Below are positions 364 to 26,695 of a stretch of DNA of 28,311 bases, piece after piece. The notes beneath the pieces are model-generated. The model saw only the letters and a list, made by a program, of their open reading frames with translations. It was not told where the DNA came from and did no database searches. Position 1 is the first letter of the stretch; each line of letters begins with the position of its first letter. The DNA comes from a virus (taxonomy: Duplodnaviria; Caudoviricetes). The stretch lies in the IMG/VR virus record IMGVR_UViG_3300028388_000664, positions 1 to 28,311 of that record, one strand, 5' to 3'. The position numbers and the translations under genes were made by a program.

Positions 364-625
364 GGGGTGGGCCAGCTGGCATTGTAAGTCCTATGATGTA
401 CACATAGGCAGATAATGTGGATAAGGATTGAGGATTCTCGGTCGTGCCCCGCACCTTTTTAGAATAGGCACTGAGTATGCTTCGGCATCAGTCAGTCCTG
501 TAGAGTCGCAATCTTGGGCAACGGTGTCTATTCTAAAACACACTAGGCGGGTTTGTGGTAGGCAAACAGTAAGACACCTCACACCACAGTAAAGGATCCC
601 TTGCTTTATAGACTAGTGTGTTTTA
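363..625 (+). ncRNA. Three consecutive structured RNA domains of unknown family
   Basis: CGGGGTG/TGCCCCG stem enclosing a CCTATG/CATAGG hairpin (363-451); 17-bp stem 457-473/522-538 with an internal ATGC-TTCG-GCAT hairpin; perfect 13-bp stem 534-546/613-625. Confidence 0.55.
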
Positions 626-932
626 CTTATTCGATGAAGCAGAGAGAAAGGTGATCTGGACAGAGGTTCAACTCCTCTCACCTCCACCAAAAGCACATAC
701 GCTGGATATGCAGATAGCATATTGAGACATAAGAAACATCAGGTATGTGCTTTTGATGGGGGTGTACTGGTTTCGACAGGTGCTCAGTATCGAAGTGGAG
801 AATCGTCAAGCACTGACGCTAAACAGAGCAACCTAAAATAAACGCAAACGATGACGTTTATACCGAGGACTTTGCGCTAGCAGCGTAAACCTCGCGGGGT
901 TCGCCGGGAGCCTTGTTACCCAAGTCCCGGCA
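626..932 (+). ncRNA. ssrA: Circularly permuted (two-piece) tmRNA; tag ANDDVYTEDFALAA
   Basis: The acceptor piece with T-arm AGAGG-TTCAACT-CCTCT (662-678) and CACCTCC-A-CCA (679-689) precedes the 5' end GGGGGTG (758-764), giving a 7-bp acceptor stem with G3.U70. TTCGAT 630-635 pairs with ATCGAA 789-794. Resume codon GCA at 844, stop TAA 886-888. 3' pseudoknot CGGGGTT/AGCCTTG with GCCGGGA/TCCCGGC. Outer ends are approximate. Confidence 0.93.
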
Positions 933-946
933 CTAATTCGGAGATT

Positions 947-1639
947 GTGTTGCGAACACTACTCATCAGCGATGTGCATATTGGGTTCAAGTTTTCTAGA
1001 GCTAAAGATGCAGTGACTGTTCTTGAAAAAGAAAAGTTTGATAGATTGATACTCGTTGGTGACATTTTTGATATTCAAAACATGATGCATCGTGCATACT
1101 GGGACGAGCATCATACTGCCTTCTTAAAAAAGATTCTCAAAATTGCCAAGAAAAAAGAAGTTATCTATGTGATCGGCAATCATGACTATCCTCTCTACTA
1201 TCTTCAAGAATACACCAAGAAAATAGCAAACGTTCGTCTCTGCAGAGAATATACTTACACCTCTAATGATAAGAAGATCCTTTGTGTTCATGGTGACCAG
1301 TTTGACTCTGTCTCTCGTAAGATTCAAGTTCTTGGTGACTTCTTTTATAGTGTGCTTTTACACTTGAATAGTTTTGTTGCTAAACTTCAAATGCTTTTTG
1401 GATTTAAGTATCGTTCATTTAGCAAGTGGTGTAAAGACAAAGTGAAGAACACAATTAGCAAAGCATTTTCTATTGAAGATAAATTGAGAGCAATTCAAGA
1501 AATTGATGTCGTAGTTTATGGACATACACACATGCCTTATGTTAGTGATGATCTAGTGAACACAGGCACCTTTGTTGAGATCGCTACATATGTTATTGAA
1601 GAGAATGGTATTTTTGAATTAAAGGATTTAGATAAATGA
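947..1639 (+). CDS. Metallophosphoesterase, LpxH/YbbF-like (UDP-2,3-diacylglucosamine hydrolase family)
   Basis: Calcineurin-like motifs SDVH, GDIFD, GNHD, HGD, GHTH; GGAG upstream of the GTG start. Confidence 0.8.
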   Translation: MLRTLLISDVHIGFKFSRAKDAVTVLEKEKFDRLILVGDIFDIQNMMHRAYWDEHHTAFLKKILKIAKKKEVIYVIGNHDYPLYYLQEYTKKIANVRLCREYTYTSNDKKILCVHGDQFDSVSRKIQVLGDFFYSVLLHLNSFVAKLQMLFGFKYRSFSKWCKDKVKNTISKAFSIEDKLRAIQEIDVVVYGHTHMPYVSDDLVNTGTFVEIATYVIEENGIFELKDLDK

Positions 1640-2578: not shown

Positions 2579-3253
2579 ATGTGTGGCGTGATTGGTGTTG
2601 CTATTCGTGATGCAACCAAAAAAGATATTGACCTAGTTTATCGTTTGTTTACGGAAACTGAAATTCGAGGCAAGCATGCAACTGGAATTTCCTTTCTTTC
2701 TGGTGATGAGATCATATCTTTTAAATTTGGTATACCTGCTCATGAGTTTCTTGAGACAATTTGCATGGGTGATATTGTTAGTAGCGATGGGTCTATCTTC
2801 ATGATTGGACATATTCGCTACTCGACTTCTGACCTTCGTTACAATCAACCATTCTACAACGATACTCTAAGCATTGTCCACAACGGTGTGCTTTCTCAGG
2901 AAGATCCAAGCAAGTGGAAATATCAAACCGAGACTGCCAATGATAGCGAACTGATCCTTCGTTCCTATGAGAAAGGACAGCATCCACTGGAAGATTTTCG
3001 ACCTTCTAGTATGGCAGTCTGCGCTCTTCACTCGAATCAAATTCTTGAGTGGTATCGCAATGAGGCACGACCTCTTTGGTATACTAAGGTTCCGCGCGGC
3101 GTGATTGTAACCTCGACTCAGGATATTGCTCGTCGCGCTGGACTCGAAGGTTCTAAGAAATGTGATATGTACAAAGTGTACTCTTTTAAAAATGAATTAC
3201 ATGTGAATGGTGATTATGACGACCTCGCAGAAAACGTTTCAGACCTACAGTGA
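2579..3253 (+). CDS. Class II (Ntn) glutamine amidotransferase, stand-alone
   Basis: N-terminal MCG nucleophile; RGxHATG, GHIRYST, NQPF, VHNG, DSE and RPL motifs. Confidence 0.88.
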   Translation: MCGVIGVAIRDATKKDIDLVYRLFTETEIRGKHATGISFLSGDEIISFKFGIPAHEFLETICMGDIVSSDGSIFMIGHIRYSTSDLRYNQPFYNDTLSIVHNGVLSQEDPSKWKYQTETANDSELILRSYEKGQHPLEDFRPSSMAVCALHSNQILEWYRNEARPLWYTKVPRGVIVTSTQDIARRAGLEGSKKCDMYKVYSFKNELHVNGDYDDLAENVSDLQ

Positions 3254-3887
3254 AAAAGAGGTTGAGGATCTTCTTGAATCTCAACCCGAAGGAAAGAACA
3301 CCAAGTTCCTGAAGTCCTCTCACAATCTATGGTATCGCTTCCATAACTATGACAAGAATCCTCCCTTTGTCATGCTTGATAACGGCAATCCTGTTGCACT
3401 TGTGTTTGCCACATTCAGTCAGCGTTCCAAGTATATCAATCTCTATGAGATCGTGACGCTCGAAGGAATGGAAGGCAATGGGTATGCCTCTCAAGTTTGG
3501 CAGCATGTTATGCAGGAAGCATATGACTCTGGTATGCGTCGACTTAAGATCTCCTGCACCCCCTCTTCGATTACCTGGCATGTTCGTAATGGACTTATCT
3601 TCTGGGCAGTTGATCCCTCTGGTTCTCTGCGCTCTGATCAACCTCTGTTTCGGACTCGACAAGAGCAACTGGATTTCCGAGAAAGAGCAGTCAAGAATCC
3701 ATCTATTGCCTTTCCTTCAGATTCGGTTTATAATAAACTCCTTGCAGAGTCTCTTGATTCGTATAAGTTCGGCACGAAGAAACGCGCACAGGTTGAAGAG
3801 GCAATTGAGTCCGTGGGTAAATACTGGTTGCGCGACTCTCTTGTTAATAATGCAAATACACTAGAAGATTTCTTTGATGGATTTTAG
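3207..3887 (+). CDS. GNAT-family acyltransferase
   Basis: LYEIVT...EGNGYAS resembles GNAT motif A (Q/RxxGxA); downstream WHVRNG; start could be 3216. Confidence 0.7.
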   Translation: MVIMTTSQKTFQTYSEKEVEDLLESQPEGKNTKFLKSSHNLWYRFHNYDKNPPFVMLDNGNPVALVFATFSQRSKYINLYEIVTLEGMEGNGYASQVWQHVMQEAYDSGMRRLKISCTPSSITWHVRNGLIFWAVDPSGSLRSDQPLFRTRQEQLDFRERAVKNPSIAFPSDSVYNKLLAESLDSYKFGTKKRAQVEEAIESVGKYWLRDSLVNNANTLEDFFDGF

Positions 3888-4881
3888 AACTGCCGATAAC
3901 CGTAAAGAAGCATTCATAAATTGGTTTGGTTGGTCACTAGAGATTGAGGATTGTGACTCTGCTCTCTACATGACCAACTATTTTTTCGATCGTTTCGAAT
4001 ATAATCTTGAGCAAAAATATTGGTTGGTCTGGTTATATGGGACGACATACAACTTTCCCACTGCCTATGTTATCTGGAATGAGTTTCCGGACATGGAACT
4101 TGTTGGTGTGGATCGTCTCAAGAAATGGAATGACGAGAAATATCCTCGACTTCGCTACCAGACTGACACCAAGTGGAACAAGGGACATCTGCCTGCGCAG
4201 TTCCTTTCCTATAAAGAGTGGGTTGGTAGTCGTCCCCAGCGTGAAGCATTTGCGGAGCACATCACCAAAGACCCATTCCAAACGTTTGAGAATCTATGGA
4301 AGGTAGCAAATTCCTGGCATAAGTTTGGTCGGTACAGTTCCTGGTTCTATCTTCAGGCACTGAAGCAGTGCGCCAAGGTTGATCTGGATATTGACAGTCT
4401 ATGGTTGCATGATCACTCTGGTTCCAAGAGTCATCGCAACGGTCTATGTTATGCCGTTGCAAAAGATGACTGGGTTAACAAAAGACTAACTAGAGAAGAG
4501 ATTTTCTGGTTGGAAGAACAGGGGAAAGAACTCTTGCTTGAAGTGAAGAGCAGGTTCCCGAATGTAGCAGAGAAAGCAGACTTCTTTGCGATGGAGACTT
4601 GCTTATGTTCATTCAAGAAACTCTTTCGTAAGAGTCGAGGCAGATACCTTGGTTATTACCTGGATCGCCAAGCAGAGGAAATCAAAAAAGCAGAGGAAGA
4701 TAATTGGACTGGTATCAACTGGTTGCCGATGTGGCAAGCAAGACAGGAAACGATTCGAAGAGAGTATTTGACAAATGCTGTCAATTGTGATAAAATGGGT
4801 ATATTCTTGGATACTGGAAAGATTGACTACAACAACACATTCGTTAGCGAAGGATTTGGTTTAGAGGAATTTATGGCATGA
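3874..4881 (+). CDS. Amino acid:DNA transferase (aGPT-Pplase/AADT family, HhH-glycosylase fold)
   Basis: KFGRYSSWFY HhH-like segment and METCLCSFKK (ETxLCxxK) motif; adjacent to TET and kinase genes. Confidence 0.7.
   Translation: MMDFRTADNRKEAFINWFGWSLEIEDCDSALYMTNYFFDRFEYNLEQKYWLVWLYGTTYNFPTAYVIWNEFPDMELVGVDRLKKWNDEKYPRLRYQTDTKWNKGHLPAQFLSYKEWVGSRPQREAFAEHITKDPFQTFENLWKVANSWHKFGRYSSWFYLQALKQCAKVDLDIDSLWLHDHSGSKSHRNGLCYAVAKDDWVNKRLTREEIFWLEEQGKELLLEVKSRFPNVAEKADFFAMETCLCSFKKLFRKSRGRYLGYYLDRQAEEIKKAEEDNWTGINWLPMWQARQETIRREYLTNAVNCDKMGIFLDTGKIDYNNTFVSEGFGLEEFMA
4768..4796 (+). promoter_or_regulatory. Internal sigma70-type promoter upstream of the TET/JBP gene
   Basis: TTGACA(4768-4773)-17 nt-TAAAAT(4791-4796) with extended -10 TG. 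Confidence 0.65.
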
Positions 4882-6266
4882 GTAGCAACAAGTATTCATA
4901 TGAAGAAGTTGATGGCGTACAAGTAATCACCGCAAAGTTCTGGAATAACTGCGAACACCAACTTGGCACCTATATGGAAGATACCGACTACGATTTCGTG
5001 GTTCAAGACGACTGTGACTTCTATGCTCCCGCAGGAACTGAAATTGAGACCGGTGAAAACGGCGAGCACAACATTATCTTCAAACTTCGTAAAAACGTAT
5101 TCACCGAGGAGGAGCAACTCGGTGCATATGATGGACTGGTTGGTGCAGCACAACCCACTCAGAACCGTGGACTTGCTGCTGGTCCAAAAGCAGGCAAGCA
5201 AGGCAAGCGTGACTGGGTGACTGACGAACAGATGGAAATTATGAACATGTTCATCAGTCAATCCAATTCTCTCTTTGAAGAGTCGATTGAAGACAAACTT
5301 GCTGCAATCCGTAAGAAGCACGAAGGTAAGGACAGCGCAGAAGGTTCCACTCGTGGACTCTGCTGGTTGCGTGCCAAGGTAACTGACTCGGGTTATACTT
5401 ATGAAAACTTCTTCCCGAACAAGCTTGAAGAGTGGTTAGGAATGTCAGAGCAAGACGCATCTAAAGATGCCGAAGCAACCTTGAAAGGATTCGTCTCGGA
5501 TACGACCTATGCCAATCAGGTTCTCTCTGGTATTGCTGGATTCTTTGATCGCTATCCGCGCATTCCCTATGGTCGTGCGACTTCTTATACCGACCACCAC
5601 TTTGAGAAGTATACCAAGTGCTATCCTTTCATGCGCAAACTTGCATCTAAGTTTAAGGAATTGCTTCCTCAGCGATATGGTATCCAGGAGTCTTGTGCCA
5701 ATAAAATTGATCAGAAGTTTCGAGTCTCTGGCAAGGACACTCCTTTTACCACAATTACCGTCAATAAAAACTTCCGCACCTCTGCTCACCGAGATGCTGG
5801 TGACCTGAATGAAGGATTCTCAAACCTGACTGTAGTAGCAAAGGATAAGAACTGGGAGGGCGGATACCTTGTCCTACCCGAGTTTCGAGTTGCGATAAAC
5901 ATTCGTCCTGGCGATCTTCTCCTGATTAACAACCATGGCGGGATTCATGGTAATACCGAACTCAAACCGCCAGCAGGAATGAAGATTGAGGACATGGAGC
6001 GTATCTCTCTCGTCTGTTATTTCCGTGAGAAGATGATGGAACTTGGTTCCTGGGATTACGAGAAACTTCGCCGCCAGTTTGTTGACGATCGTCGACTGAA
6101 TAAGGATCACCCTGAATGGCGTGAGTATTGGAATGGTGTCTCTTCTAACATGTGGTCGTCTCAGGAGTGGTATGATTACCTGAAAGAGAATGGTGGAGTC
6201 GAGATGCTTGATGAGTATCATCCCGAAGCACTCAAAGAAAAAGCAACCCTTGAGGATTTCTTCTAA
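4878..6266 (+). CDS. TET/JBP-family 2-oxoglutarate/Fe(II) dioxygenase
   Basis: PFTTITVNKNFRTSAHRDAGD (HxD), HGNT (distal His), RISLVCYFR (2OG-binding RxS); GAGG SD; ATGA overlap. Confidence 0.87.
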   Translation: MSSNKYSYEEVDGVQVITAKFWNNCEHQLGTYMEDTDYDFVVQDDCDFYAPAGTEIETGENGEHNIIFKLRKNVFTEEEQLGAYDGLVGAAQPTQNRGLAAGPKAGKQGKRDWVTDEQMEIMNMFISQSNSLFEESIEDKLAAIRKKHEGKDSAEGSTRGLCWLRAKVTDSGYTYENFFPNKLEEWLGMSEQDASKDAEATLKGFVSDTTYANQVLSGIAGFFDRYPRIPYGRATSYTDHHFEKYTKCYPFMRKLASKFKELLPQRYGIQESCANKIDQKFRVSGKDTPFTTITVNKNFRTSAHRDAGDLNEGFSNLTVVAKDKNWEGGYLVLPEFRVAINIRPGDLLLINNHGGIHGNTELKPPAGMKIEDMERISLVCYFREKMMELGSWDYEKLRRQFVDDRRLNKDHPEWREYWNGVSSNMWSSQEWYDYLKENGGVEMLDEYHPEALKEKATLEDFF

Positions 6267-6826
6267 TGAATAAAGTTGTTGCCATTGGTGGTGTGCCTGG
6301 AACCGGAAAGACGACTCTCGTTCAGAGAGTCATTTCGTTTGCGGATGACTGGAAAGTCTGCAAACCCGTTGATCTTCTTGATGCTATATACTCTGAGTCT
6401 TTGGATCTATATATTCTTGGCAAGTATGCTCCATTCTATGAAGGAGATGGATATGCCTGGGGAACTGATCGGTTGAGTATGGCAGTGCAACCGAAGGCAA
6501 GCGAGTTTCTGAAAGAGACAACTTCAGATATTTTGTTTGAAGGTGATCGTCTCTTCAATCAGTCTTTCCTGGAACTCTGTGTTGACGAGAAAACGACACT
6601 TATACTTGTCCTTAAAGCGGATAAAGACACTTTAAAGTGTCGTTACGAGGAAAGAGGTTCTGAACAGTCCGAGAAGTTTATTCAGGGAAGAGAGACAAAA
6701 TACGGCAATCTACTGACAAACTTTTTTCTGATGCCATATACCGAGTATATGGAGAATACAAACCAAGATGATCAGGAAAGGATCGTCTCTCAAATTAGGA
6801 AATTCCTTGATGATAGGACAAACTGA
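6266..6826 (+). CDS. P-loop nucleotide/nucleic-acid kinase of the type associated with base-modification clusters
   Basis: Walker A GVPGTGKT, LFEGDRL Walker-B-like motif, RYEERGS lid. Confidence 0.8.
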   Translation: MNKVVAIGGVPGTGKTTLVQRVISFADDWKVCKPVDLLDAIYSESLDLYILGKYAPFYEGDGYAWGTDRLSMAVQPKASEFLKETTSDILFEGDRLFNQSFLELCVDEKTTLILVLKADKDTLKCRYEERGSEQSEKFIQGRETKYGNLLTNFFLMPYTEYMENTNQDDQERIVSQIRKFLDDRTN

Positions 6827-7028
6827 AAAGAATCTGGACTGGGAGTTTATGTTTCGTAGGTTAGTTGAAGATCTACAGAAGCATATCGTAATGCACGAGA
6901 ATGCTCTTGACGTTGCTCTTAATCCTTATTGTCATGATGACTCTCGTTTTACCGAGGGATTTCACGCAGGGATGCGTTCACAATGTAACAAATTAAAATT
7001 CATTCTAAACGAGAATGCATATAAATAA
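6810..7028 (+). CDS. Hypothetical protein
   Basis: ORF 6768-7028; ATG 6810 minimises overlap with the kinase gene. Confidence 0.55.
   Translation: MIGQTEKNLDWEFMFRRLVEDLQKHIVMHENALDVALNPYCHDDSRFTEGFHAGMRSQCNKLKFILNENAYK
7020..7027 (+). promoter_or_regulatory. T4-type late promoter
   Basis: Exact TATAAATA 22 nt upstream of ATG 7050. Confidence 0.75.
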
Positions 7029-7049: not shown

Positions 7050-7601
7050 ATGCGTAAATTAATACTTGCTTTGGTTTTGTTATCCTCAGTGGTTTATGGT
7101 CAAGATGCAACCATTGACCCTATTATCACAGAAGCAACTACTAACAGCACGGTGAATAGTCAGTCCAATTCGAGGACGAAATTAGAATCACCTCCTCCCT
7201 CTGCTATTTCACCTACGATTAATACGAGCAACTCTGACTTGTGTACTTTTGGTGTTGCTGGAGCAATTCAGACTCAGATTCTGGGCATCTCTACGGGGAC
7301 TCAGGTGACTGATGAGAACTGTGAGCGACTCAAACTTGCCAAGACTCTCTATGATATGGGAATGAAGGTTGCGGCAGTTTCTACGATGTGTCAAGATAAA
7401 CGAGTCTTTGATGCAATGATGAGTGCAGGAACGCCCTGTCCCTATGATGGCATGATCGGCGAGGATGCCAAGGCAGCATGGTCTGTGAATGAAGATCAAC
7501 AGCCGGGAGCAAAGAAAGATGAAGAAGGACTGGAACAGAGTACTCAGACGCTCCTTGGCGGTGCTGGCGTTGCTAGCCTGCTCTTCTTACTCCTACTCTG
7601 A
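7050..7601 (+). CDS. Exported Cys-containing protein with C-terminal hydrophobic anchor
   Basis: Signal peptide MRKLILALVLLSSVVYG; four Cys; ends LLGGAGVASLLFLLLL. Confidence 0.8.
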   Translation: MRKLILALVLLSSVVYGQDATIDPIITEATTNSTVNSQSNSRTKLESPPPSAISPTINTSNSDLCTFGVAGAIQTQILGISTGTQVTDENCERLKLAKTLYDMGMKVAAVSTMCQDKRVFDAMMSAGTPCPYDGMIGEDAKAAWSVNEDQQPGAKKDEEGLEQSTQTLLGGAGVASLLFLLLL

Positions 7602-8412
7602 GGAAGTTTTTGGGACAACTCAGAACGCTGCTGATCAAGCATTGCAGTGGACAATGACAGAGGTTCTTCCTCAGCAGGCAGGACTAACTGTCAGCAATGT
7701 CATCTATCGTTATACCAGCATCAAGCAAACCGAAGATGATATGCTGGTTCATGTTCAGAACCAAAACGCTGAAGCATCTGGATTTATTTTCCGAGAGACC
7801 GACGATTGGTCTGGTATTCCTGGAAACACAATCAATAAGATTGTTCCTGTGAACAATATTCCAGGAGAACTGTGGGGCGATGGTTCTATTGAAGTTGAAG
7901 GTACAGGACAAGTCACAGACGCATCTGTAATCTATTCTTTTCAGTTTGAACCTTGTTTTGACCCCCAGTCCGATCCCTCCTGCCCTGGTTATCAAGATCC
8001 CTTTGATCTCATGCTAGAAGAGGTTAAAGTTTTTGATCCTATGGACGATAAGTTTATACAGGACGAACTTGATCGCAAGACAGTCATGGACGAGGAAGAT
8101 GAAGAGGACCGCCAGCGAAGAAAGATGATGGCAGAAGGTAAAAAAGAGGACAGACTCGAATCAATTCTAAGTATTGTCAACATTGCTCTTTTGGATGCCG
8201 AGGCACAGTCAAAAGCAGCAGAACTCCTCGCAATGAATTTTATCCCTCAAACCTATTATCAAAGCATCCCAGATAATAAATATGAGGAGAAAGTCGTATT
8301 GCCTGGAGGCGATATACCGGATAGCAGAAACGGAAGGAGGGTTGGTTTCGCGCAACAACTGCTTCATAAACAAATGGTAGATTCGCAGTATAATAACAAG
8401 GAGAACAAGTAA
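7519..8412 (+). CDS. Exported protein with beta-rich N-domain, CFDPQSDPSCPG motif and acidic/helical C-terminus
   Basis: Signal peptide RRSLAVLALLACSSYSYS-EE; start uncertain (7489/7519). Confidence 0.75.
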   Translation: MKKDWNRVLRRSLAVLALLACSSYSYSEEVFGTTQNAADQALQWTMTEVLPQQAGLTVSNVIYRYTSIKQTEDDMLVHVQNQNAEASGFIFRETDDWSGIPGNTINKIVPVNNIPGELWGDGSIEVEGTGQVTDASVIYSFQFEPCFDPQSDPSCPGYQDPFDLMLEEVKVFDPMDDKFIQDELDRKTVMDEEDEEDRQRRKMMAEGKKEDRLESILSIVNIALLDAEAQSKAAELLAMNFIPQTYYQSIPDNKYEEKVVLPGGDIPDSRNGRRVGFAQQLLHKQMVDSQYNNKENK

Positions 8413-8909
8413 TGTTCAAAAAATCCCTCGCTCTCGCAGCGGCAATTATTGGGATGAACGCAGCAGCAGAAGATGTAACCATCACAGGGACGGTGACTTC
8501 CAAGTGTGTGATTACTACAGATACTGTTGGGATCTATGGCAACCCTACGCCTAGCGAACTCAGCACTGCGCCAGCAGACGGTGGTGTTCTACCCATCGTT
8601 CGCTATGATGTGCTTCAGGCAAACTTCTACAAAGCACGTATCACTTATCCCGAGTCTTTCTCAGAGAGCCCTGCGCTTGATGATGTAGTAACATGGACAG
8701 GTGATGTGACTGTTGCAGAAGTTACTGATGCTGGTATGTCGGCATATGATACAAGCAAAGTAGAATTTGATAACGTAACAGAAGTTGATCTGACGATTGC
8801 AGGCAGCACTTGGTTTCAAGTTGCTTCTACTGCAGATTACGGTGTGACTAAGGCATTTCCTGCAGGTACGTACCGTGCAATTGTGAGTGCAGACTGCATC
8901 GCACTCTGA
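8412..8909 (+). CDS. Exported fimbrial/pilin-like (Ig-fold) protein
   Basis: Signal peptide ending AAA; VTITGTVTSKC N-terminal strand and FPAGTYRAIVSADC C-terminal strand resemble chaperone-usher/Csu pilin subunits; GGAG SD. Confidence 0.6.
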   Translation: MFKKSLALAAAIIGMNAAAEDVTITGTVTSKCVITTDTVGIYGNPTPSELSTAPADGGVLPIVRYDVLQANFYKARITYPESFSESPALDDVVTWTGDVTVAEVTDAGMSAYDTSKVEFDNVTEVDLTIAGSTWFQVASTADYGVTKAFPAGTYRAIVSADCIAL

Positions 8910-8916
8910 GGTAAAC

Positions 8917-9291
8917 ATGCGCTATATTATGATTGGAGTGATATTGTCCCTGTGTGGGCATGCAAGTGCCCACCAGTGGATACCTACCTATCCTAGGTTA
9001 GAACCCTCTTATGTTGAGGGAATATTGAAAGTAAGAATGGAACTATTTAATACGAGGAAGGACGTTAAATACTACGAAATCCTTGTTTATGATAATGAAT
9101 TTAATCCAGTTAAATTTGCAGTACAAGAAAGAATTATTGAAGTTAGATATTTGAAGCGAAAGAGTATTGAGGTATTCATTCGTGAAGAGGACAGAGATGT
9201 TGCTAGATATGTCTGTTCTAAATCTAAATTACTGAAGGGGACAGGGACTGCTACGTTAGTATCTTCCCGAATATGTTCTAAAATAAAATGA
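8917..9291 (+). CDS. Exported protein, possibly PapD/chaperone-like Ig fold
   Basis: GAGGT SD before ATG 8917; signal peptide ending ASA; beta-strand pattern with MELFN and a C-terminal Cys pair. Confidence 0.6.
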   Translation: MRYIMIGVILSLCGHASAHQWIPTYPRLEPSYVEGILKVRMELFNTRKDVKYYEILVYDNEFNPVKFAVQERIIEVRYLKRKSIEVFIREEDRDVARYVCSKSKLLKGTGTATLVSSRICSKIK

Positions 9292-9719
9292 AATTAATAT
9301 TATTGGTTTTGTTATTTGTATGTGGAAATGCGTTTGCTCAGAATAGTTTGAACTTGGCAATCCCGCAGAGTCCACAGAGTTTCCAGCAGGACAGAGTCCG
9401 TGCTGGTGACCTTGAATGTTCGGCAGCAATTGGTTCGTCAACAAATGTTGAGTTTGGTGTGGTTGGAATCTTGAATCAAAATGATCCCTATGGCGCCAAT
9501 AATCAATTCCTTATTGACCCTGCTACCGGACAGTATAGCACCAATGACTTCGTTCGGGATGTTGGTGTGTATGGTAGAATCACGGTGCCCATTGGAGCAC
9601 CAAAGGAGCGACTAAACTGTAACCTACTTTATAAATTGGAATTGCAAAGACGCAAACTTGAAGTGATGAAATTACAAGCTGAGATCGCACAGTTAAAGAG
9701 ATTAAAGTTTGAGGAATAA
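9288..9719 (+). CDS. Exported protein with C-terminal coiled coil
   Basis: Signal peptide ending AFA; Cys pair in the mature region; heptad-like C-terminus. Confidence 0.75.
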   Translation: MKLILLVLLFVCGNAFAQNSLNLAIPQSPQSFQQDRVRAGDLECSAAIGSSTNVEFGVVGILNQNDPYGANNQFLIDPATGQYSTNDFVRDVGVYGRITVPIGAPKERLNCNLLYKLELQRRKLEVMKLQAEIAQLKRLKFEE

Positions 9720-9721
9720 CC

Positions 9722-10267
9722 ATGTCCGAGAAAGACCTGGGCGAAGAATTAGAAAATATTGAAGAGAAGGTAGAGAACCTCAAGAAAACCAAGTTTACTC
9801 TATTTGGTCTTTCAATGACACCCACAACAATTAGCGCAGCATTTGCGTTAATTGCCACTGTACTTGGTTCGCTATATGGTGGATTTGAGACTTATAAAGC
9901 ATTCCAAGAAATAGCAGAGAAGTTAGAAGTATTAGATCTTGAAGCAATTGAAGCACGTAATGTTGCTATTGAACGTAAACTTGATGACGCTATTGATTAT
10001 ACTCGTGATATAAAAAACAGTCTCAAAGATGATATTATCCGAATTGAACAAGTAACCGAAAGAACAAGTAATAGAGTTAAAACGGTTCAAGACGAAATAG
10101 ACCAACGTTTAAGATTATTATCTGACATCAATAGAGAAACAGAAAAAGATGTCCGCGACACTATGCGTAATACCGAAAATCGCATTGATGATAAAATGGA
10201 TAAACTTGATGCTGATTTGAGAGAGACATTACAAAAAGCATTAGATAATCCTTTGGCAGATGGATAG
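9722..10267 (+). CDS. Membrane-anchored coiled-coil protein
   Basis: TM-like ISAAFALIATVLGSLYGGF followed by a long heptad-rich helix; GAGG SD. Confidence 0.8.
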   Translation: MSEKDLGEELENIEEKVENLKKTKFTLFGLSMTPTTISAAFALIATVLGSLYGGFETYKAFQEIAEKLEVLDLEAIEARNVAIERKLDDAIDYTRDIKNSLKDDIIRIEQVTERTSNRVKTVQDEIDQRLRLLSDINRETEKDVRDTMRNTENRIDDKMDKLDADLRETLQKALDNPLADG

Positions 10268-10573: not shown

Positions 10574-10714
10574 ATGCGAACCCTTGGTGATCTTTATAAC
10601 GAACTGATGTGCCTCTGCGAGATTCGCGGCGAACTTTCACCCGAAGACAATGCTCGTATCGAAGAACGCATCGCTGTAATTACTAATGAAATCAATGAGT
10701 TGGAAAACAACTAA
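10574..10714 (+). CDS. Small hypothetical early protein (46 aa, not in ORF track)
   Basis: MRTLGDLYNELMCLCEIRGELSPEDNARIEERIAVITNEINELENN; strong SD GAGGTG; TAATG coupling. Confidence 0.7.
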   Translation: MRTLGDLYNELMCLCEIRGELSPEDNARIEERIAVITNEINELENN

Positions 10715-11103
10715 TGCGTGAATATAACCTGATCGAAATACTCCGTAAGCATAAGCTTTGGCTTGCTGACGCTCCTGGCGGCGAACGGGCTGATCTGAGT
10801 GGTGCTACCCTGATTGGTGCTAATCTGTATGGCACTGACCTCCGTGAATCTAACCTGCGTGGTGCTGATCTGCTTGATGCCGACCTGCGCCATTCCAACA
10901 TGTATGGTGCCGACATGCGTGATGTTGATCTGCGCGGCGCCAAACTGTTTGGTTCCATACTCGGCAACTGGGTTTGCACGGACGATTTGCACGACTATCA
11001 GTGGAGGCAGGATTCCCAATCCTTGGACTTTGAGGAGTATCAAGACCTGCCCTGGGGTGGAGATGACATGTTCGAGACCTGCTCGTATGCGGAGGACTTT
11101 TAA
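10714..11103 (+). CDS. Pentapeptide-repeat protein
   Basis: Tandem A(D/N)LxG-type repeats: ADLSG ATLIG ANLYG TDLRE SNLRG ADLLD ADLRH... Confidence 0.88.
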   Translation: MREYNLIEILRKHKLWLADAPGGERADLSGATLIGANLYGTDLRESNLRGADLLDADLRHSNMYGADMRDVDLRGAKLFGSILGNWVCTDDLHDYQWRQDSQSLDFEEYQDLPWGGDDMFETCSYAEDF

Positions 11104-24706: not shown

Positions 24707-26695
24707 ATGTCTATTAAGATTGATGTAAAGAAAGACGAACTCTTAGAAGAATATGCAATTGGAATGCTGAAAGATTTTTATCTGAACGAATATGAAACAT
24801 CTCCCCAAGAAGGATATGCTCGAGCAGCAACTGCCTGGTCAAAATATAAGGAAGAAATAGACGAAGAACTTGCTCAGCGCCTCTATGACTATGTGAGCAA
24901 GAAATGGTTCATGTTTGCTTCGCCAGTTTTATCGAATGCTCCCAATGGTTCTAAGAAAGATAAGGGCATGCCGATCTCTTGTTTCCTCACCTACGTCCCT
25001 GATACGTTAGAGGGTCTCATTGATCACTCCTCTGAACTACGGTGGTTATCCGTCTATGGAGGCGGCGTAGGAGGGCACTGGAGCGATGTTCGTACAGTAA
25101 GTGATATTGCACCTGGACCTATTCCATTCTTACACACCGTAGATGCAGACATGATTGCCTATCGCCAAGGAAAGACCCGTAAGGGTTCTTATGCGGCATA
25201 CATGGATGTCTCTCACCCTGACATTGTTGAGTTTCTGAACATGCGCATCCCCACAGGTGATGTTCAGCGTAAAGCATTGAATCTACACAATGCAATCAAT
25301 CTGACTGATGAGTTTATGCAAGCCGTTGCTGAGAACAAAGAGTTTGAACTTCGTGACCCGAAAGATAATGCGGTAAAAGAAACAGTCAATGCTCGTAAAC
25401 TCTGGGAGCGTATTCTTGAGATTCGTTTCCGTACTGGTGAACCGTACCTTAACTTTATTGATACCGCAAACGCTGCGCTGCCTCAGAATCTCAAAGACCT
25501 TGGGTTGCGCATTAATGGGTCAAATCTCTGTAATGAGATTCACCTACCAACATCGGCAGAGAGGACCGCAGTATGTTGTCTCTCTTCCCTCAATCTAGAG
25601 TATTACGATGAGTGGAAAGATACGAATATTGTGCGTGATCTTATTCGCATGCTTGACAACGTCCTGCAGTACTTTATCGAAAACGCACCAGATACGATTC
25701 GACGGGCTAAGTATAGTGCTGAGAGAGAACGGTCCATCGGACTGGGCGCTATGGGATTTCACTCTCTACTTCAACGGCACGGAGTCGCCTGGGAATCTGA
25801 GGCTGCGAGAGAGATCAATTCAGTTGTCTTTCGGCGTATATCCGAGGAAGCAAGAAAAGAGACAGAACTTCTCGCTCAAGAACGAGGAGAGTATCCGGAT
25901 GGAGTTGGCACAGGACGACGCCATGCCCATCTGCTCGCTATCGCCCCGAATGCGTCCAGTGGTGTTATCCTGTCCACCTCGCCCTCAATTGAACCTATGA
26001 AGGCAAATGCCTATACGCATCGAACCCGAGCGGGAAGTTTTTTGGTCAAGAACCGCTATTTGGAGCAAATACTTACCGATCGGGAAATGAATAATGACTC
26101 CACTTGGACTTCTATTATCACCAATAAAGGTAGTGTTCAACATCTTCCTTTCTTGACTGAAGGTGAGAAAGCAGTATTCCGCACTGCTCAGGAACTAGAT
26201 CAGAACTGGGTTGTACAGCATGCAGGAGACCGCCAGCAGTATATTTGTCAAGGACAGTCTGTGAACTTATTCTTTCCTGCCGGTGCGCAGAAGTCTTATG
26301 TAAACAAGGTGCATCTGAAAGCATGGCGTGAAGGACTCAAGGGTCTCTACTATCTGCGTACCGAGGCGAAGTCTCGTGCCGAGAACGTCTCCGAGAAGGT
26401 GGAGCGTGTGGCACTTGAAGACGACAAGCGTAACATTGTTTATAGTAAGAAGAACTGTCCATTCTGCGCTATGGCAATGGAAGAACTAAAGTTGCGTGGC
26501 ATTCCTTTTGACAAGGTTGATCTAGAAGAGATTGGTAAGACTGCAGCAGAAGTCACGGGCAGAAAGGTAAGAACCGTGCCGCAAATTTATTTGGGTGGTA
26601 ATTACATTGGTGGTTATGAAGAACTGATGACGCATCTAAATAATGCTTCCGTGGAACAATCCGAAGACAACGAATGCAGAGCATGCGAGGGTTAA
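24707..26695 (+). CDS. nrdA: Class I ribonucleotide reductase alpha subunit with C-terminal glutaredoxin domain
   Basis: ASPVLSN, ISCF, NLCNEI, VCCLSS, APNASS, QGQSVN, LYYLR motifs; then CPFC...TVPQIY...IGGYEEL Grx domain and terminal CRACEG. Confidence 0.95.
   Translation: MSIKIDVKKDELLEEYAIGMLKDFYLNEYETSPQEGYARAATAWSKYKEEIDEELAQRLYDYVSKKWFMFASPVLSNAPNGSKKDKGMPISCFLTYVPDTLEGLIDHSSELRWLSVYGGGVGGHWSDVRTVSDIAPGPIPFLHTVDADMIAYRQGKTRKGSYAAYMDVSHPDIVEFLNMRIPTGDVQRKALNLHNAINLTDEFMQAVAENKEFELRDPKDNAVKETVNARKLWERILEIRFRTGEPYLNFIDTANAALPQNLKDLGLRINGSNLCNEIHLPTSAERTAVCCLSSLNLEYYDEWKDTNIVRDLIRMLDNVLQYFIENAPDTIRRAKYSAERERSIGLGAMGFHSLLQRHGVAWESEAAREINSVVFRRISEEARKETELLAQERGEYPDGVGTGRRHAHLLAIAPNASSGVILSTSPSIEPMKANAYTHRTRAGSFLVKNRYLEQILTDREMNNDSTWTSIITNKGSVQHLPFLTEGEKAVFRTAQELDQNWVVQHAGDRQQYICQGQSVNLFFPAGAQKSYVNKVHLKAWREGLKGLYYLRTEAKSRAENVSEKVERVALEDDKRNIVYSKKNCPFCAMAMEELKLRGIPFDKVDLEEIGKTAAEVTGRKVRTVPQIYLGGNYIGGYEELMTHLNNASVEQSEDNECRACEG

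What the first reader, a model, noticed from the sequence alone, without database searches (positions are those of the whole stretch)
2579..6826. Five-enzyme putative DNA hypermodification operon: GATase + GNAT + amino acid:DNA transferase + TET/JBP + P-loop kinase
Seen: five overlapping or translationally coupled genes with intact catalytic motifs. Established: TET/JBP enzymes hydroxylate T or 5mC methyl groups in DNA, and AADT/aGPT-Pplase enzymes transfer amines or amino acids onto phosphorylated 5-hydroxymethyl pyrimidines. In the characterised thymine-hypermodifying phages (ViI, M6, PhiW-14 type) 5hmU is made at the nucleotide level before replication. Inference: this phage builds the base after replication. 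TET hydroxylates, the kinase activates, AADT attaches an amino acid (or ammonia supplied by the stand-alone GATase), and the GNAT acylates it. That would give an N-acyl-aminomethyl or amidated amino-acid pyrimidine that I do not know to have been chemically characterised. The likely role is anti-restriction. No C5-methyltransferase or glycosyltransferase is in the window, which mildly favours thymine as substrate.
Basis: partly seen in the sequence, partly recalled or inferred. Interest (0 to 1): 0.88.

Follow-up and report, generated by a model that had tools for sequence, protein, structure and literature searches.

The report
Glutamine-fed phage thymine hypermodification operon
An uncultured T4-like phage carries five overlapping genes that likely oxidise thymine in finished DNA, likely attach glutamine-derived ammonia through a predicted two-enzyme complex and probably acetylate it; this kind of gene cluster is published, but its product and this likely short cut have not been shown.

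Summary
Confirmed: five overlapping genes (GATase, GNAT, AADT, TET/JBP, P-loop kinase) with conserved catalytic residues, co-conserved in many viral contigs. The cluster type is published (Lee 2021; O'Toole 2026) and this scan found it before on other DNA. The product of this cluster is not reported. Thymine is the likely substrate: 12 relatives, one complete with all five genes, lack C5-methyltransferase and dUMP-hydroxymethylase matches, and five of five tested encode ThyX. The GATase most likely serves the AADT. It is PurF-like, tracks AADT across relatives, is fused to AADT in five divergent proteins, and is predicted to dock on it (0.85 versus best control 0.24). Between the two genes the long GNAT is repeatedly swapped for amidoligase plus short GNAT. 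Best model: T to 5hmU to 5-PmdU, ammonia gives 5-aminomethyl-dU, the GNAT acylates it, probably to 5-AcNmdU by a shorter route than in PaMx11. TET, AADT and GNAT end in the peptide that ends related DNA polymerases, suggesting sliding-clamp tethering. All chemistry is inferred; no cultured carrier was found.

The parts
2579..3253 (+). Stand-alone class II (Ntn) glutaminase subunit, PurF-like; predicted partner of the AADT and likely ammonia source
   Evidence: Pfam GATase_6; 8 of 8 PDB sequence matches are PurF; C2, R30, R80, Y81, T83, N102, G103, D122 invariant in 42 aligned; predicted complex with AADT
3207..3887 (+). Long GNAT acyltransferase (GNAT-A), exchangeable tailoring gene; ends in polymerase-like tail
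   Evidence: Pfam Acetyltransf_1; model pLDDT 93 with generic GNAT matches; never with the amidoligase in 168 loci; tail
3874..4881 (+). Amino acid:DNA transferase family protein (AADT / aGPT-Pplase2); likely transfers ammonia to 5-PmdU; ends in polymerase-like tail
   Evidence: Pfam ADDT 3.2e-24; top three fold matches are PaMx11 gp46/PUGT; PUGT E243/T244/C247/D24 map to E241/T242/C245/D28, glycine-binding W146/K150 to Y154/F158
4878..6266 (+). TET/JBP 5-methylpyrimidine dioxygenase, long T4-like form; likely T to 5hmU in DNA; ends in polymerase-like tail
   Evidence: Pfam Tet_JBP 5.3e-25; H304, D306, H357, R375 conserved; shares the RYPRIP motif with tested T-dioxygenase candidates in the O'Toole construct table; tail
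6266..6826 (+). P-loop kinase, likely 5hmU-DNA kinase
   Evidence: Pfam Ploopntkinase3 1.8e-8; profile matches M6 gp54 (1.1e-7) and PaMx11 gp49 (8.8e-7) among 13 reference proteins
7020..7027 (+). TATAAATA, T4 late-promoter-like site just after the cluster, a likely boundary to the next gene block
   Evidence: 3 matches in the window, 0.74 expected, 3 of 100 shuffles as high; the T4 consensus is recalled

Best explanation
The five genes likely convert some thymines in already replicated phage DNA into an N-acylated, probably N-acetylated, 5-aminomethyl-uracil, using ammonia that a glutaminase subunit is predicted to hand directly to the DNA transferase. Steps, all inferred: (1) the TET/JBP enzyme hydroxylates T to 5hmU; (2) the P-loop kinase makes 5-PmdU; (3) AADT C245 attacks C6, phosphate leaves, and the exocyclic methylene is captured by NH3 released from glutamine by the docked GATase, giving 5-NmdU; (4) the GNAT acylates the amine, most simply to 5-AcNmdU, the base PaMx11 reaches through glycine transfer and an FAD lyase. 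TET, AADT and GNAT would work from the gp45 sliding clamp through their C-terminal tails, and the GATase would ride on the AADT. The likely role is protection from host nucleases. Shown: genes, families, residues, co-conservation, fusions, cassette swaps, tails. Not shown: any reaction, the complex, clamp binding, the role.
For: Substrate: 0 of 12 related genomes match PF00145 or PF00303, among them a complete 161.7 kb five-gene genome (G007); 5 of 5 have ThyX. GATase partner: all 8 PDB matches are PurF, where ammonia displaces a phosphate leaving group (mechanism recalled). Amidoligase absent from 9 of 9 long-GNAT genomes including G007, present in 3 of 3 others. Five GATase-AADT fusions, 29-62% identical to each other; one confirmed as a single ORF beside a 5-hmdU DNA kinase (PF18748 2e-24) and a thymidylate-synthase-family gene, with no ligase or GNAT hit among the four downstream ORFs scanned. 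Long GNAT and ligase never co-occur in 168 loci; at least 8 swaps are forced on the AADT tree. GATase identity tracks AADT identity (r 0.81) with no cassette effect (coefficient -0.005); L197/L210 differ in cassette with AADT 94% and GATase 89% identical. Predicted AADT-GATase complex: 0.85 against best control 0.24 (mark reached by 116 of 157 solved and 2 of 215 mismatched pairs; runs agree in at least 96% of contacts, partner pLDDT at least 91). Interface residues are conserved: AADT 12 of 19 versus 87 of 316 elsewhere, GATase 13 of 22 versus 28 of 202; five GATase-less AADTs keep 19 of 60, five fusions 48 of 60. PUGT glycine ligands W146/K150 are replaced by conserved Y154/F158. Tails: exactly GNAT, AADT and TET among 35 window ORFs; 5 of 5 related DNA polymerases end alike.
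Against: No AADT has been shown to use ammonia in the papers I saw; the closest characterised one is the serine transferase ViI gp247 (1.8e-43). The GATase also fuses to GNAT-A (2 proteins) and to the ligase (2 proteins), so fusion partly reflects adjacency. The GATase-AADT correlation is expected from linkage alone. The GATase interface overlaps its active site, so its conservation is not independent, and control AADTs are more distant overall (45% versus 68% of other conserved positions). GNAT-A is only weakly like PaMx11 gp48 (E 0.0065 among 13; the short GNAT-B scores 1.4e-6) and has an invariant Glu89 where GNAT motif A usually has Arg or Gln (rule recalled), so acetyl-CoA is an assumption. 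Some clade C1 dioxygenases without ParB showed no activity in E. coli, and no ParB was found in 5 related genomes. The PUGT mapping rests on an alignment at about 11% identity. No channel could be traced, as no coordinates were returned.
Confidence: 0.55

Rival explanations
1. Same route to 5-aminomethyl-dU, but the long GNAT adds a group other than acetyl (another acyl-CoA, or an amino acid from charged tRNA as Mom does), giving an undescribed base.
For: GNAT-A replaces a two-gene ligase + GNAT cassette, which would add a larger group. It has an invariant Glu89 in motif A and a C-terminal helical extension. Weak likeness to PaMx11 gp48. A phage GNAT using Gly-tRNA on DNA exists (PMC13219725, abstract and one section).
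Against: No likeness to Mu Mom (probability 0.3%; a single-sequence comparison and insensitive: the same method missed AADT versus gp46). Fold matches listed are ordinary acetyltransferases. gp48 also has Glu near this position.
Confidence: 0.17
2. The AADT transfers an amino acid (for example serine, as in ViI), the GNAT acetylates its amine, and GATase ammonia amidates its carboxylate.
For: Closest characterised AADT is ViI gp247. GATase + amidoligase is a common pairing, seen in 51 of 168 loci and in 2 fusions. All characterised AADTs I read about use organic amines or amino acids.
Against: No ligase in 9 long-GNAT genomes including a complete one, yet GATase catalytic residues stay invariant there. 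No cassette-diagnostic column in GATase or AADT (largest frequency difference 0.65). Two loci have GATase next to AADT with no tailoring gene between. Predicted GATase-AADT complex.
Confidence: 0.12
3. The GATase-fold subunit is a hydrolase acting on the DNA adduct: the AADT attaches a gamma-glutamyl compound (glutamine or glutathione) and the subunit removes the glutamyl group, unmasking an amine for the GNAT.
For: Fits the complex, fusions and co-conservation equally well; the GATase active-site face is in the interface. AADTs accept thiols in vitro (PMC8989533). Ntn hydrolases of this kind exist (EgtC, Dug3; recalled).
Against: Matches are to PurF (8 of 8) and GATase_6/7, not GATase_4. The N-terminal C-G, R-G and H-x-R-Y-x-T pattern is that of ammonia-channelling enzymes (roles recalled). 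A bulky F158 at the PUGT amine-binding lysine argues against a large nucleophile.
Confidence: 0.1
4. The substrate is 5-methylcytosine made by a host or divergent phage methyltransferase, so the product is a cytosine derivative.
For: Phage T-dioxygenases also oxidise 5mC in vitro (PMC13229309). The window is only 18% of its genome.
Against: 0 of 12 relatives match PF00145, with the control ringing in 9 of 14 genomes. The same GATase-AADT module occurs beside a 5-hmdU DNA kinase and a thymidylate-synthase-family gene. Kinase and AADT relatives act on 5hmU.
Confidence: 0.04

Closest known systems
Clade C1 phage T-dioxygenase (5mYOX) neighbourhoods with GATase, P-loop kinase and AADT (O'Toole et al. 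2026, PMC13229309; parts 1-5 of 7 read, supplements searched)
   Same: Same families: PF12851, PF18751, PF18724, PF13522/13537; GATase in about 11% and GNAT in about 7% of their contigs. Loci L141 and L232 have ParB + short TET + the same four genes.
   Different: Only the T-oxidation step was tested there. This TET is 462 aa, not about 305-325, no ParB was found here or in 5 relatives, and three enzymes carry polymerase-like tails that L141 and L232 lack.
PaMx11 pathway to 5-AcNmdU: gp49 kinase, gp46 glycine transferase (PUGT), gp47 FAD lyase, gp48 GNAT (PMC8989533, passages and two sections; PMC11472151, passages and one section)
   Same: Kinase + AADT + GNAT logic; AADT fold and E-T-x-x-C centre; probably the same end product.
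   Different: 5hmU comes from TET after replication, not from a nucleotide-level enzyme; no FAD lyase; a glutaminase instead; the glycine-binding W146/K150 are not kept.
ViI pathway to 5-NeOmdU (gp67/gp243 kinase, gp247 serine transferase, gp226 decarboxylase)
   Same: gp247 is the closest characterised AADT by sequence (1.8e-43; 26% identity).
   Different: No PLP decarboxylase in the cluster; gp247 has no GATase in its 17 kb region and keeps 5 of 12 conserved interface residues.
Class II glutamine amidotransferases, PurF type
   Same: Glutaminase domain with Cys at the N-terminus and matching R-G, H-x-R-Y, H-N-G and D-S-E motifs; ammonia replacing a phosphate leaving group (recalled).
   Different: Separate subunit (fused in some relatives); the acceptor would be a base inside DNA, activated by an AADT.
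C-terminal gp45-binding epitopes of T4/RB69 gp43, gp55, gp33 (PMC2988020, passages)
   Same: Short acidic-hydrophobic C-terminal peptide shared with the DNA polymerase of related phages.
   Different: Here on DNA-modifying enzymes; binding untested; the window's own polymerase and clamp are not in the fragment.

Membership tests
AADT / aGPT-Pplase2 (PF18724) | Profile match above cut-off | tested here: met
   86.4 bits, cut-off 26.2
AADT / aGPT-Pplase2 (PF18724) | PUGT-like fold with catalytic Glu, Thr, Cys | tested here: met
   Top three Foldseek rows are PUGT, TM 0.52-0.54, probability 1.0 but E 0.04-0.09; E241, T242, C245 conserved
Glycine:DNA transferase (PUGT / M6 gp51 type) | Glycine-binding Trp146 and Lys150 | tested here: not met
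   Y154 and F158, both conserved in relatives; low-identity alignment
AADT / aGPT-Pplase2 (PF18724) | Transfer of a nucleophile to 5-PmdU in DNA | not testable with these tools
   Needs enzymology
TET/JBP dioxygenase (PF12851) | Profile match, HxD...H iron ligands, 2OG-binding Arg | tested here: met
   88 bits, cut-off 34.9; H304, D306, H357, R375
Phage T-dioxygenase (not 5mC type) | No C5-methyltransferase partner; canonical dTMP synthesis | tested here: met
   PF00145 0 of 12, PF00303 0 of 12, ThyX 5 of 5 in relatives; own genome is a fragment
ParB-dependent clade C1 subclass | Neighbouring ParB activator | tested here: not met
   None among 30 window ORFs or in 5 related genomes; present in small-phage versions L141, L232
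Clade C1 5mYOX | Placement in a tree with the tested enzymes | not tested
   Only a shared motif was seen in the construct table
5-hmdU DNA kinase (5-HMUDK) | P-loop kinase homologous to M6 gp54 / PaMx11 gp49 | tested here: met
   PF18751; profile E 1.1e-7 and 8.8e-7; distant, and the Pfam family differs from PF18748
Class II glutamine amidotransferase | N-terminal Cys, oxyanion-hole Asn-Gly, glutamine-binding Arg, Thr, Asp | tested here: met
   C2, N102-G103, R80, T83, D122 invariant; aligned to PurF; residue roles recalled
Class II glutamine amidotransferase | Coupling to a synthase domain through an ammonia channel | tested here: inconclusive
   Complex with AADT predicted, with residues 28-33 and 81-83 in the interface; channel not traced
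GNAT acetyltransferase | GNAT fold | tested here: met
5-NmdU N-acetyltransferase (PaMx11 gp48 type) | Specific homology to gp48 and use of acetyl-CoA | tested here: inconclusive
   E 0.0065 among 13 proteins, 20% identity over 99 columns; donor not testable
PaMx11 5-AcNmdU pathway | FAD-dependent lyase and pre-replicative 5hmU | tested here: not met
   No such gene in the cluster or among recurrent neighbours; PF00303 0 of 12. It may work like this pathway but is not a member
gp45-binding C-terminal epitope | Terminal peptide like that of the cognate polymerase | tested here: met
   polymerases of relatives, not of this phage
gp45-binding C-terminal epitope | Measured binding to the clamp | not testable with these tools
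   The one complex job went to GATase-AADT

The most novel reading that the evidence does not exclude
The GATase and AADT form a two-subunit, glutamine-dependent DNA aminotransferase that channels ammonia onto a base inside DNA. It works from the T4-type sliding clamp where small phages use ParB, and the long GNAT caps the amine with a non-acetyl group, giving a base not yet described.
Probability: 0.15. Interest if true: 0.85.

Novelty: new variant of a known kind. Interest (0 to 1): 0.6.

Why it matters
The NEB group lists GATases and amidoligases in these clusters as unexplained. The evidence here assigns the GATase a specific partner and makes the question testable with five genes in E. 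coli and two known masses (257 u and 299 u). If right, it adds ammonia to the nucleophiles that AADTs use, and a glutamine amidotransferase whose acceptor is a DNA base. It would also give a fully post-replicative enzymatic route to put a primary amine handle on thymine in any DNA. The system is common in aquatic phages: about 870 IMG/VR stretches match the GATase patterns, and 341 stretches encode the long GNAT. The swap between long GNAT and ligase + GNAT predicts several related bases on one intermediate.

Tried and rejected
Single-sequence search with the TET found nothing in viral contigs; alignments of the other genes did. No cultured phage carries the system: long GNAT 0 matches, GATase at most about 32% identity among the 30 listed of 242, AADT at most 30%. 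Cultured phages with the long TET (DLP6, C48C1, Cr30, S-CBWM1) pair it with sugar enzymes; only Cr30 has an AADT and kinase nearby. A sixth co-conserved modification gene: none; the commonest neighbours reach 27 of 73 clusters and look like T4 replication genes (recognised by eye). Sigma-70 promoter and terminator scans were at chance level. Profile-versus-single-sequence comparisons of AADT with gp46 and of GNAT-A with Mom gave nothing; the first is a false negative. No solved structure matches the AADT by sequence. Loci for two of three fusion proteins tried were not found. The tree is the quick one; the careful search did not finish. Iyer et al. 2013, which first predicted such neighbourhoods (recalled), was not held and may already list this gene set. 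Searches that found no report of this product or of an ammonia-using AADT; PMC13458397 has no mention of GATase in its main text. Most subscription journals are outside the library; figures and the supplements of Lee 2021 were not seen.

Full report
Observation. The five ORFs are real, on the + strand and overlapping at every junction. Pfam confirms GATase_6, Acetyltransf_1, ADDT, Tet_JBP and Ploopntkinase3, each above its cut-off. The window is a whole 28.3 kb virus record, about 18% complete; other genes (exonuclease, peroxiredoxin, ribonucleotide reductase, TATAAATA sites) and the relatives mark it as T4-like. Catalytic residues are conserved across dozens of relatives: GATase C2, R30, R80, Y81, T83, N102, G103, D122; AADT D28, E241, T242, C245; TET H304, D306, H357, R375; kinase P-loop and E92-G-D-R.

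Co-conservation. I fetched the best 80 viral loci each with alignments of the AADT, GNAT and GATase (210 locus ids, some contigs twice). Of the 80 AADT-anchored loci, 69 show the GATase; the other 11 end within about 2 kb upstream. In 168 loci both genes are whole. They fall into 73 clusters at 90% AADT identity; 71 have TET and 70 the kinase in view. The DNA between GATase and AADT varies: long GNAT as here (115 loci, 42 clusters), amidoligase + short GNAT (47 loci, 25 clusters), amidoligase without GNAT (4 loci), nothing (2 loci); one cluster holds both main types. The ligase is Amidoligase_2-like (no direct Pfam hit). These proportions are biased, since one search was anchored on the long GNAT. 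Long GNAT and ligase never share a locus, and well-supported branches of a quick AADT tree force at least 8 changes. The core is therefore TET, kinase, AADT and GATase, with an exchangeable tailoring cassette.

Substrate. Twelve larger related records, two at least 90% complete, have no match to the C5-methyltransferase or the thymidylate synthase/hydroxymethylase family, and five of five tested have ThyX. One, G007, is complete with terminal repeats and carries the same five genes (L136). These phages therefore most likely make ordinary dTMP and hydroxylate thymine after replication. This agrees with PMC13229309, where phage enzymes of this superfamily oxidise T in DNA. A divergent methyltransferase could have been missed.

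What the GATase does. Its sequence matches in the PDB are all PurF (8 of 8). It keeps invariant catalytic residues where no ligase exists (9 of 9 long-GNAT genomes). Its identity tracks the AADT (r 0.81; 0.75 across cassette types) with no cassette effect, and no column separates the types; linkage alone could give the correlation. A search of longer proteins returned 50 hits, among them five GATase-AADT fusions, two GATase-GNAT and two GATase-ligase fusions, so adjacency explains part of this. One AADT fusion is confirmed in DNA, beside a 5-hmdU DNA kinase and a thymidylate-synthase-family gene. The complex prediction supports binding without showing it: 0.85 against a best control of 0.24, a mark reached by 116 of 157 solved and 2 of 215 mismatched pairs; runs agree in at least 96% of contacts, partner pLDDT at least 91. 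No AADT-GATase structure turned up that it could have recalled. The interface uses GATase residues 28-33, 81-83, 162-165, 180-182 and 223-224, the face that meets the synthase domain in PurF (recalled), and AADT 39-46, 69-76 and 279-285. These positions are more conserved than the rest; five GATase-less AADTs keep 19 of 60, five fusions 48 of 60, against 45% and 68% at other conserved sites.

The AADT. Its model matches PaMx11 gp46/PUGT first (TM 0.52-0.54, weak E-values). PUGT's E243, T244, C247, D24 map to E241, T242, C245, D28, but its glycine ligands W146 and K150 map to Y154 and F158, so glycine is unlikely. The nearest characterised sequence is the serine transferase ViI gp247, which keeps the amino-acid rival alive.

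The GNAT. The fold is a confident but generic GNAT with extra C-terminal helices. Likeness to the PaMx11 5-NmdU acetyltransferase gp48 is weak; none to Mom was seen. Acetylation is the simplest reading, not a tested one; Glu89 in motif A is invariant.

Clamp tails. Earlier notes of this scan pointed to polymerase-like tails, and I tested that. Of 35 window ORFs, only GNAT, AADT and TET end in the pattern. Among relatives it ends 87 of 116 TETs, 48 of 108 AADTs, 34 of 70 long GNATs, 4 of 37 short GNATs, 0 of 119 GATases, 1 of 91 kinases, 0 of 39 ligases and 19 of 956 other ORFs, most of which look like DNA polymerases. Five of five related polymerases end alike. Many TET misses are near-variants. 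In T4 such tails bind gp45 (PMC2988020, passages). Two five-gene loci with ParB and a short TET lack the tails, while five T4-like relatives lack ParB. Binding is untested.

Model. T to 5hmU (TET), to 5-PmdU (kinase), to 5-aminomethyl-dU (AADT with ammonia from the docked GATase), to an N-acyl derivative, probably 5-AcNmdU (GNAT). In ligase-type relatives the same amine would be aminoacylated and then acetylated. Each reaction is inferred. Confidence 0.55; rivals are a non-acetyl cap (0.17), amino-acid transfer with amidation (0.12), a glutamyl-removing hydrolase (0.10) and 5mC as substrate (0.04).

Comparison with what is known. Lee et al. (PMC8989533; passages, sections 17 and 21) report TET_JBP next to kinase and AADT genes, note amidoligases and amidotransferases of unknown role, and reconstituted 5-AcNmdU from PaMx11. 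O'Toole et al. (PMC13229309; parts 1-5 of 7 and supplement searches) link clade C1 dioxygenases to GATase, P-loop kinase and AADT but test only T oxidation. Burke et al. (PMC8256090; passages and section 5) cover 5mC types. Searches found no product for this gene set and no ammonia-using AADT; Iyer et al. 2013 was not available. No cultured carrier was found. This scan has reported the same cluster, the ammonia reading and the tails on other genomes; those notes are unchecked and are not counted as support. One of them favours an amino acid for a ligase-type cluster.

Verdict. A real and widespread operon, a new variant of known thymine hypermodification. The gene set is in print and the likely product is a known base. 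The open and testable parts are the glutamine-fed AADT complex, the exchangeable caps and the clamp tethering. Interest 0.6.

Noticed in passing
window 597-979 (+): Permuted (two-piece) tmRNA gene: ARAGORN and Rfam RF04321, 112.5 bits. Permuted tmRNAs are typical of Alphaproteobacteria and a few other groups (recalled), a hint to the host.
   Followed up: partly
L009 7727-9004, L029 7673-8992, L055 7515-9002 and others: A 425-510 aa gene inserted just before the AADT in many ligase-type loci; no Pfam hit; by eye a GIY-YIG-like start and a ParB-like motif. It could be a mobile endonuclease or a dioxygenase activator.
   Followed up: no
L071 5026-8898; L174 8678-11126; L206 2658-5106: A further tailoring set between GATase and AADT: amidoligase, low-molecular-weight phosphatase (PF01451 in L071) and glycosyltransferase (TAGT in L071; by eye in L174, L206).
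   Followed up: no
L231 2-4920: GATase-AADT fusion followed by a 5-hmdU DNA kinase, a thymidylate-synthase-family gene and a 2OG-oxygenase-like gene: the module also occurs in a probable pre-replicative 5hmU phage.
   Followed up: partly
L141 6407-10746; L232 1485-5764; L083 6360-10034: Versions with ParB and a short TET (TET not in view in L083) lack the polymerase-like tails, while T4-like versions have tails and no PF02195 match: ParB and gp45 may be alternative clamps. Only three cases.
   Followed up: partly
L004 9998-18891 (Caulobacter phage Cr30): A cultured phage with the long TET, an AADT, a TAGT-like gene, myo-inositol-1-phosphate synthase and a P-loop kinase, without GATase: its virion DNA may hold an unknown thymine derivative.
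   Followed up: no
L228 1-3462 (Mycobacterium phage Mudslide): Cultured phage with annotated ParB-like gene, TET, AADT and kinase as genes 1-4 and no GATase; the AADT match starts upstream of the annotated start.
   Followed up: no
window 7050-10267: Block of six or seven genes without family hits, several with signal-peptide-like starts, after a TATAAATA site.
   Followed up: no
window 24707-26695: Class I ribonucleotide reductase large subunit with a C-terminal glutaredoxin domain.
   Followed up: no
window 10714-11103: ORF with pentapeptide-repeat-like sequence, seen by eye.
   Followed up: no
G002 and G003 (L224-L227): The family B DNA polymerase is split into two ORFs (about 485 and 376 codons); the clamp-type tail is on the second.
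   Followed up: no
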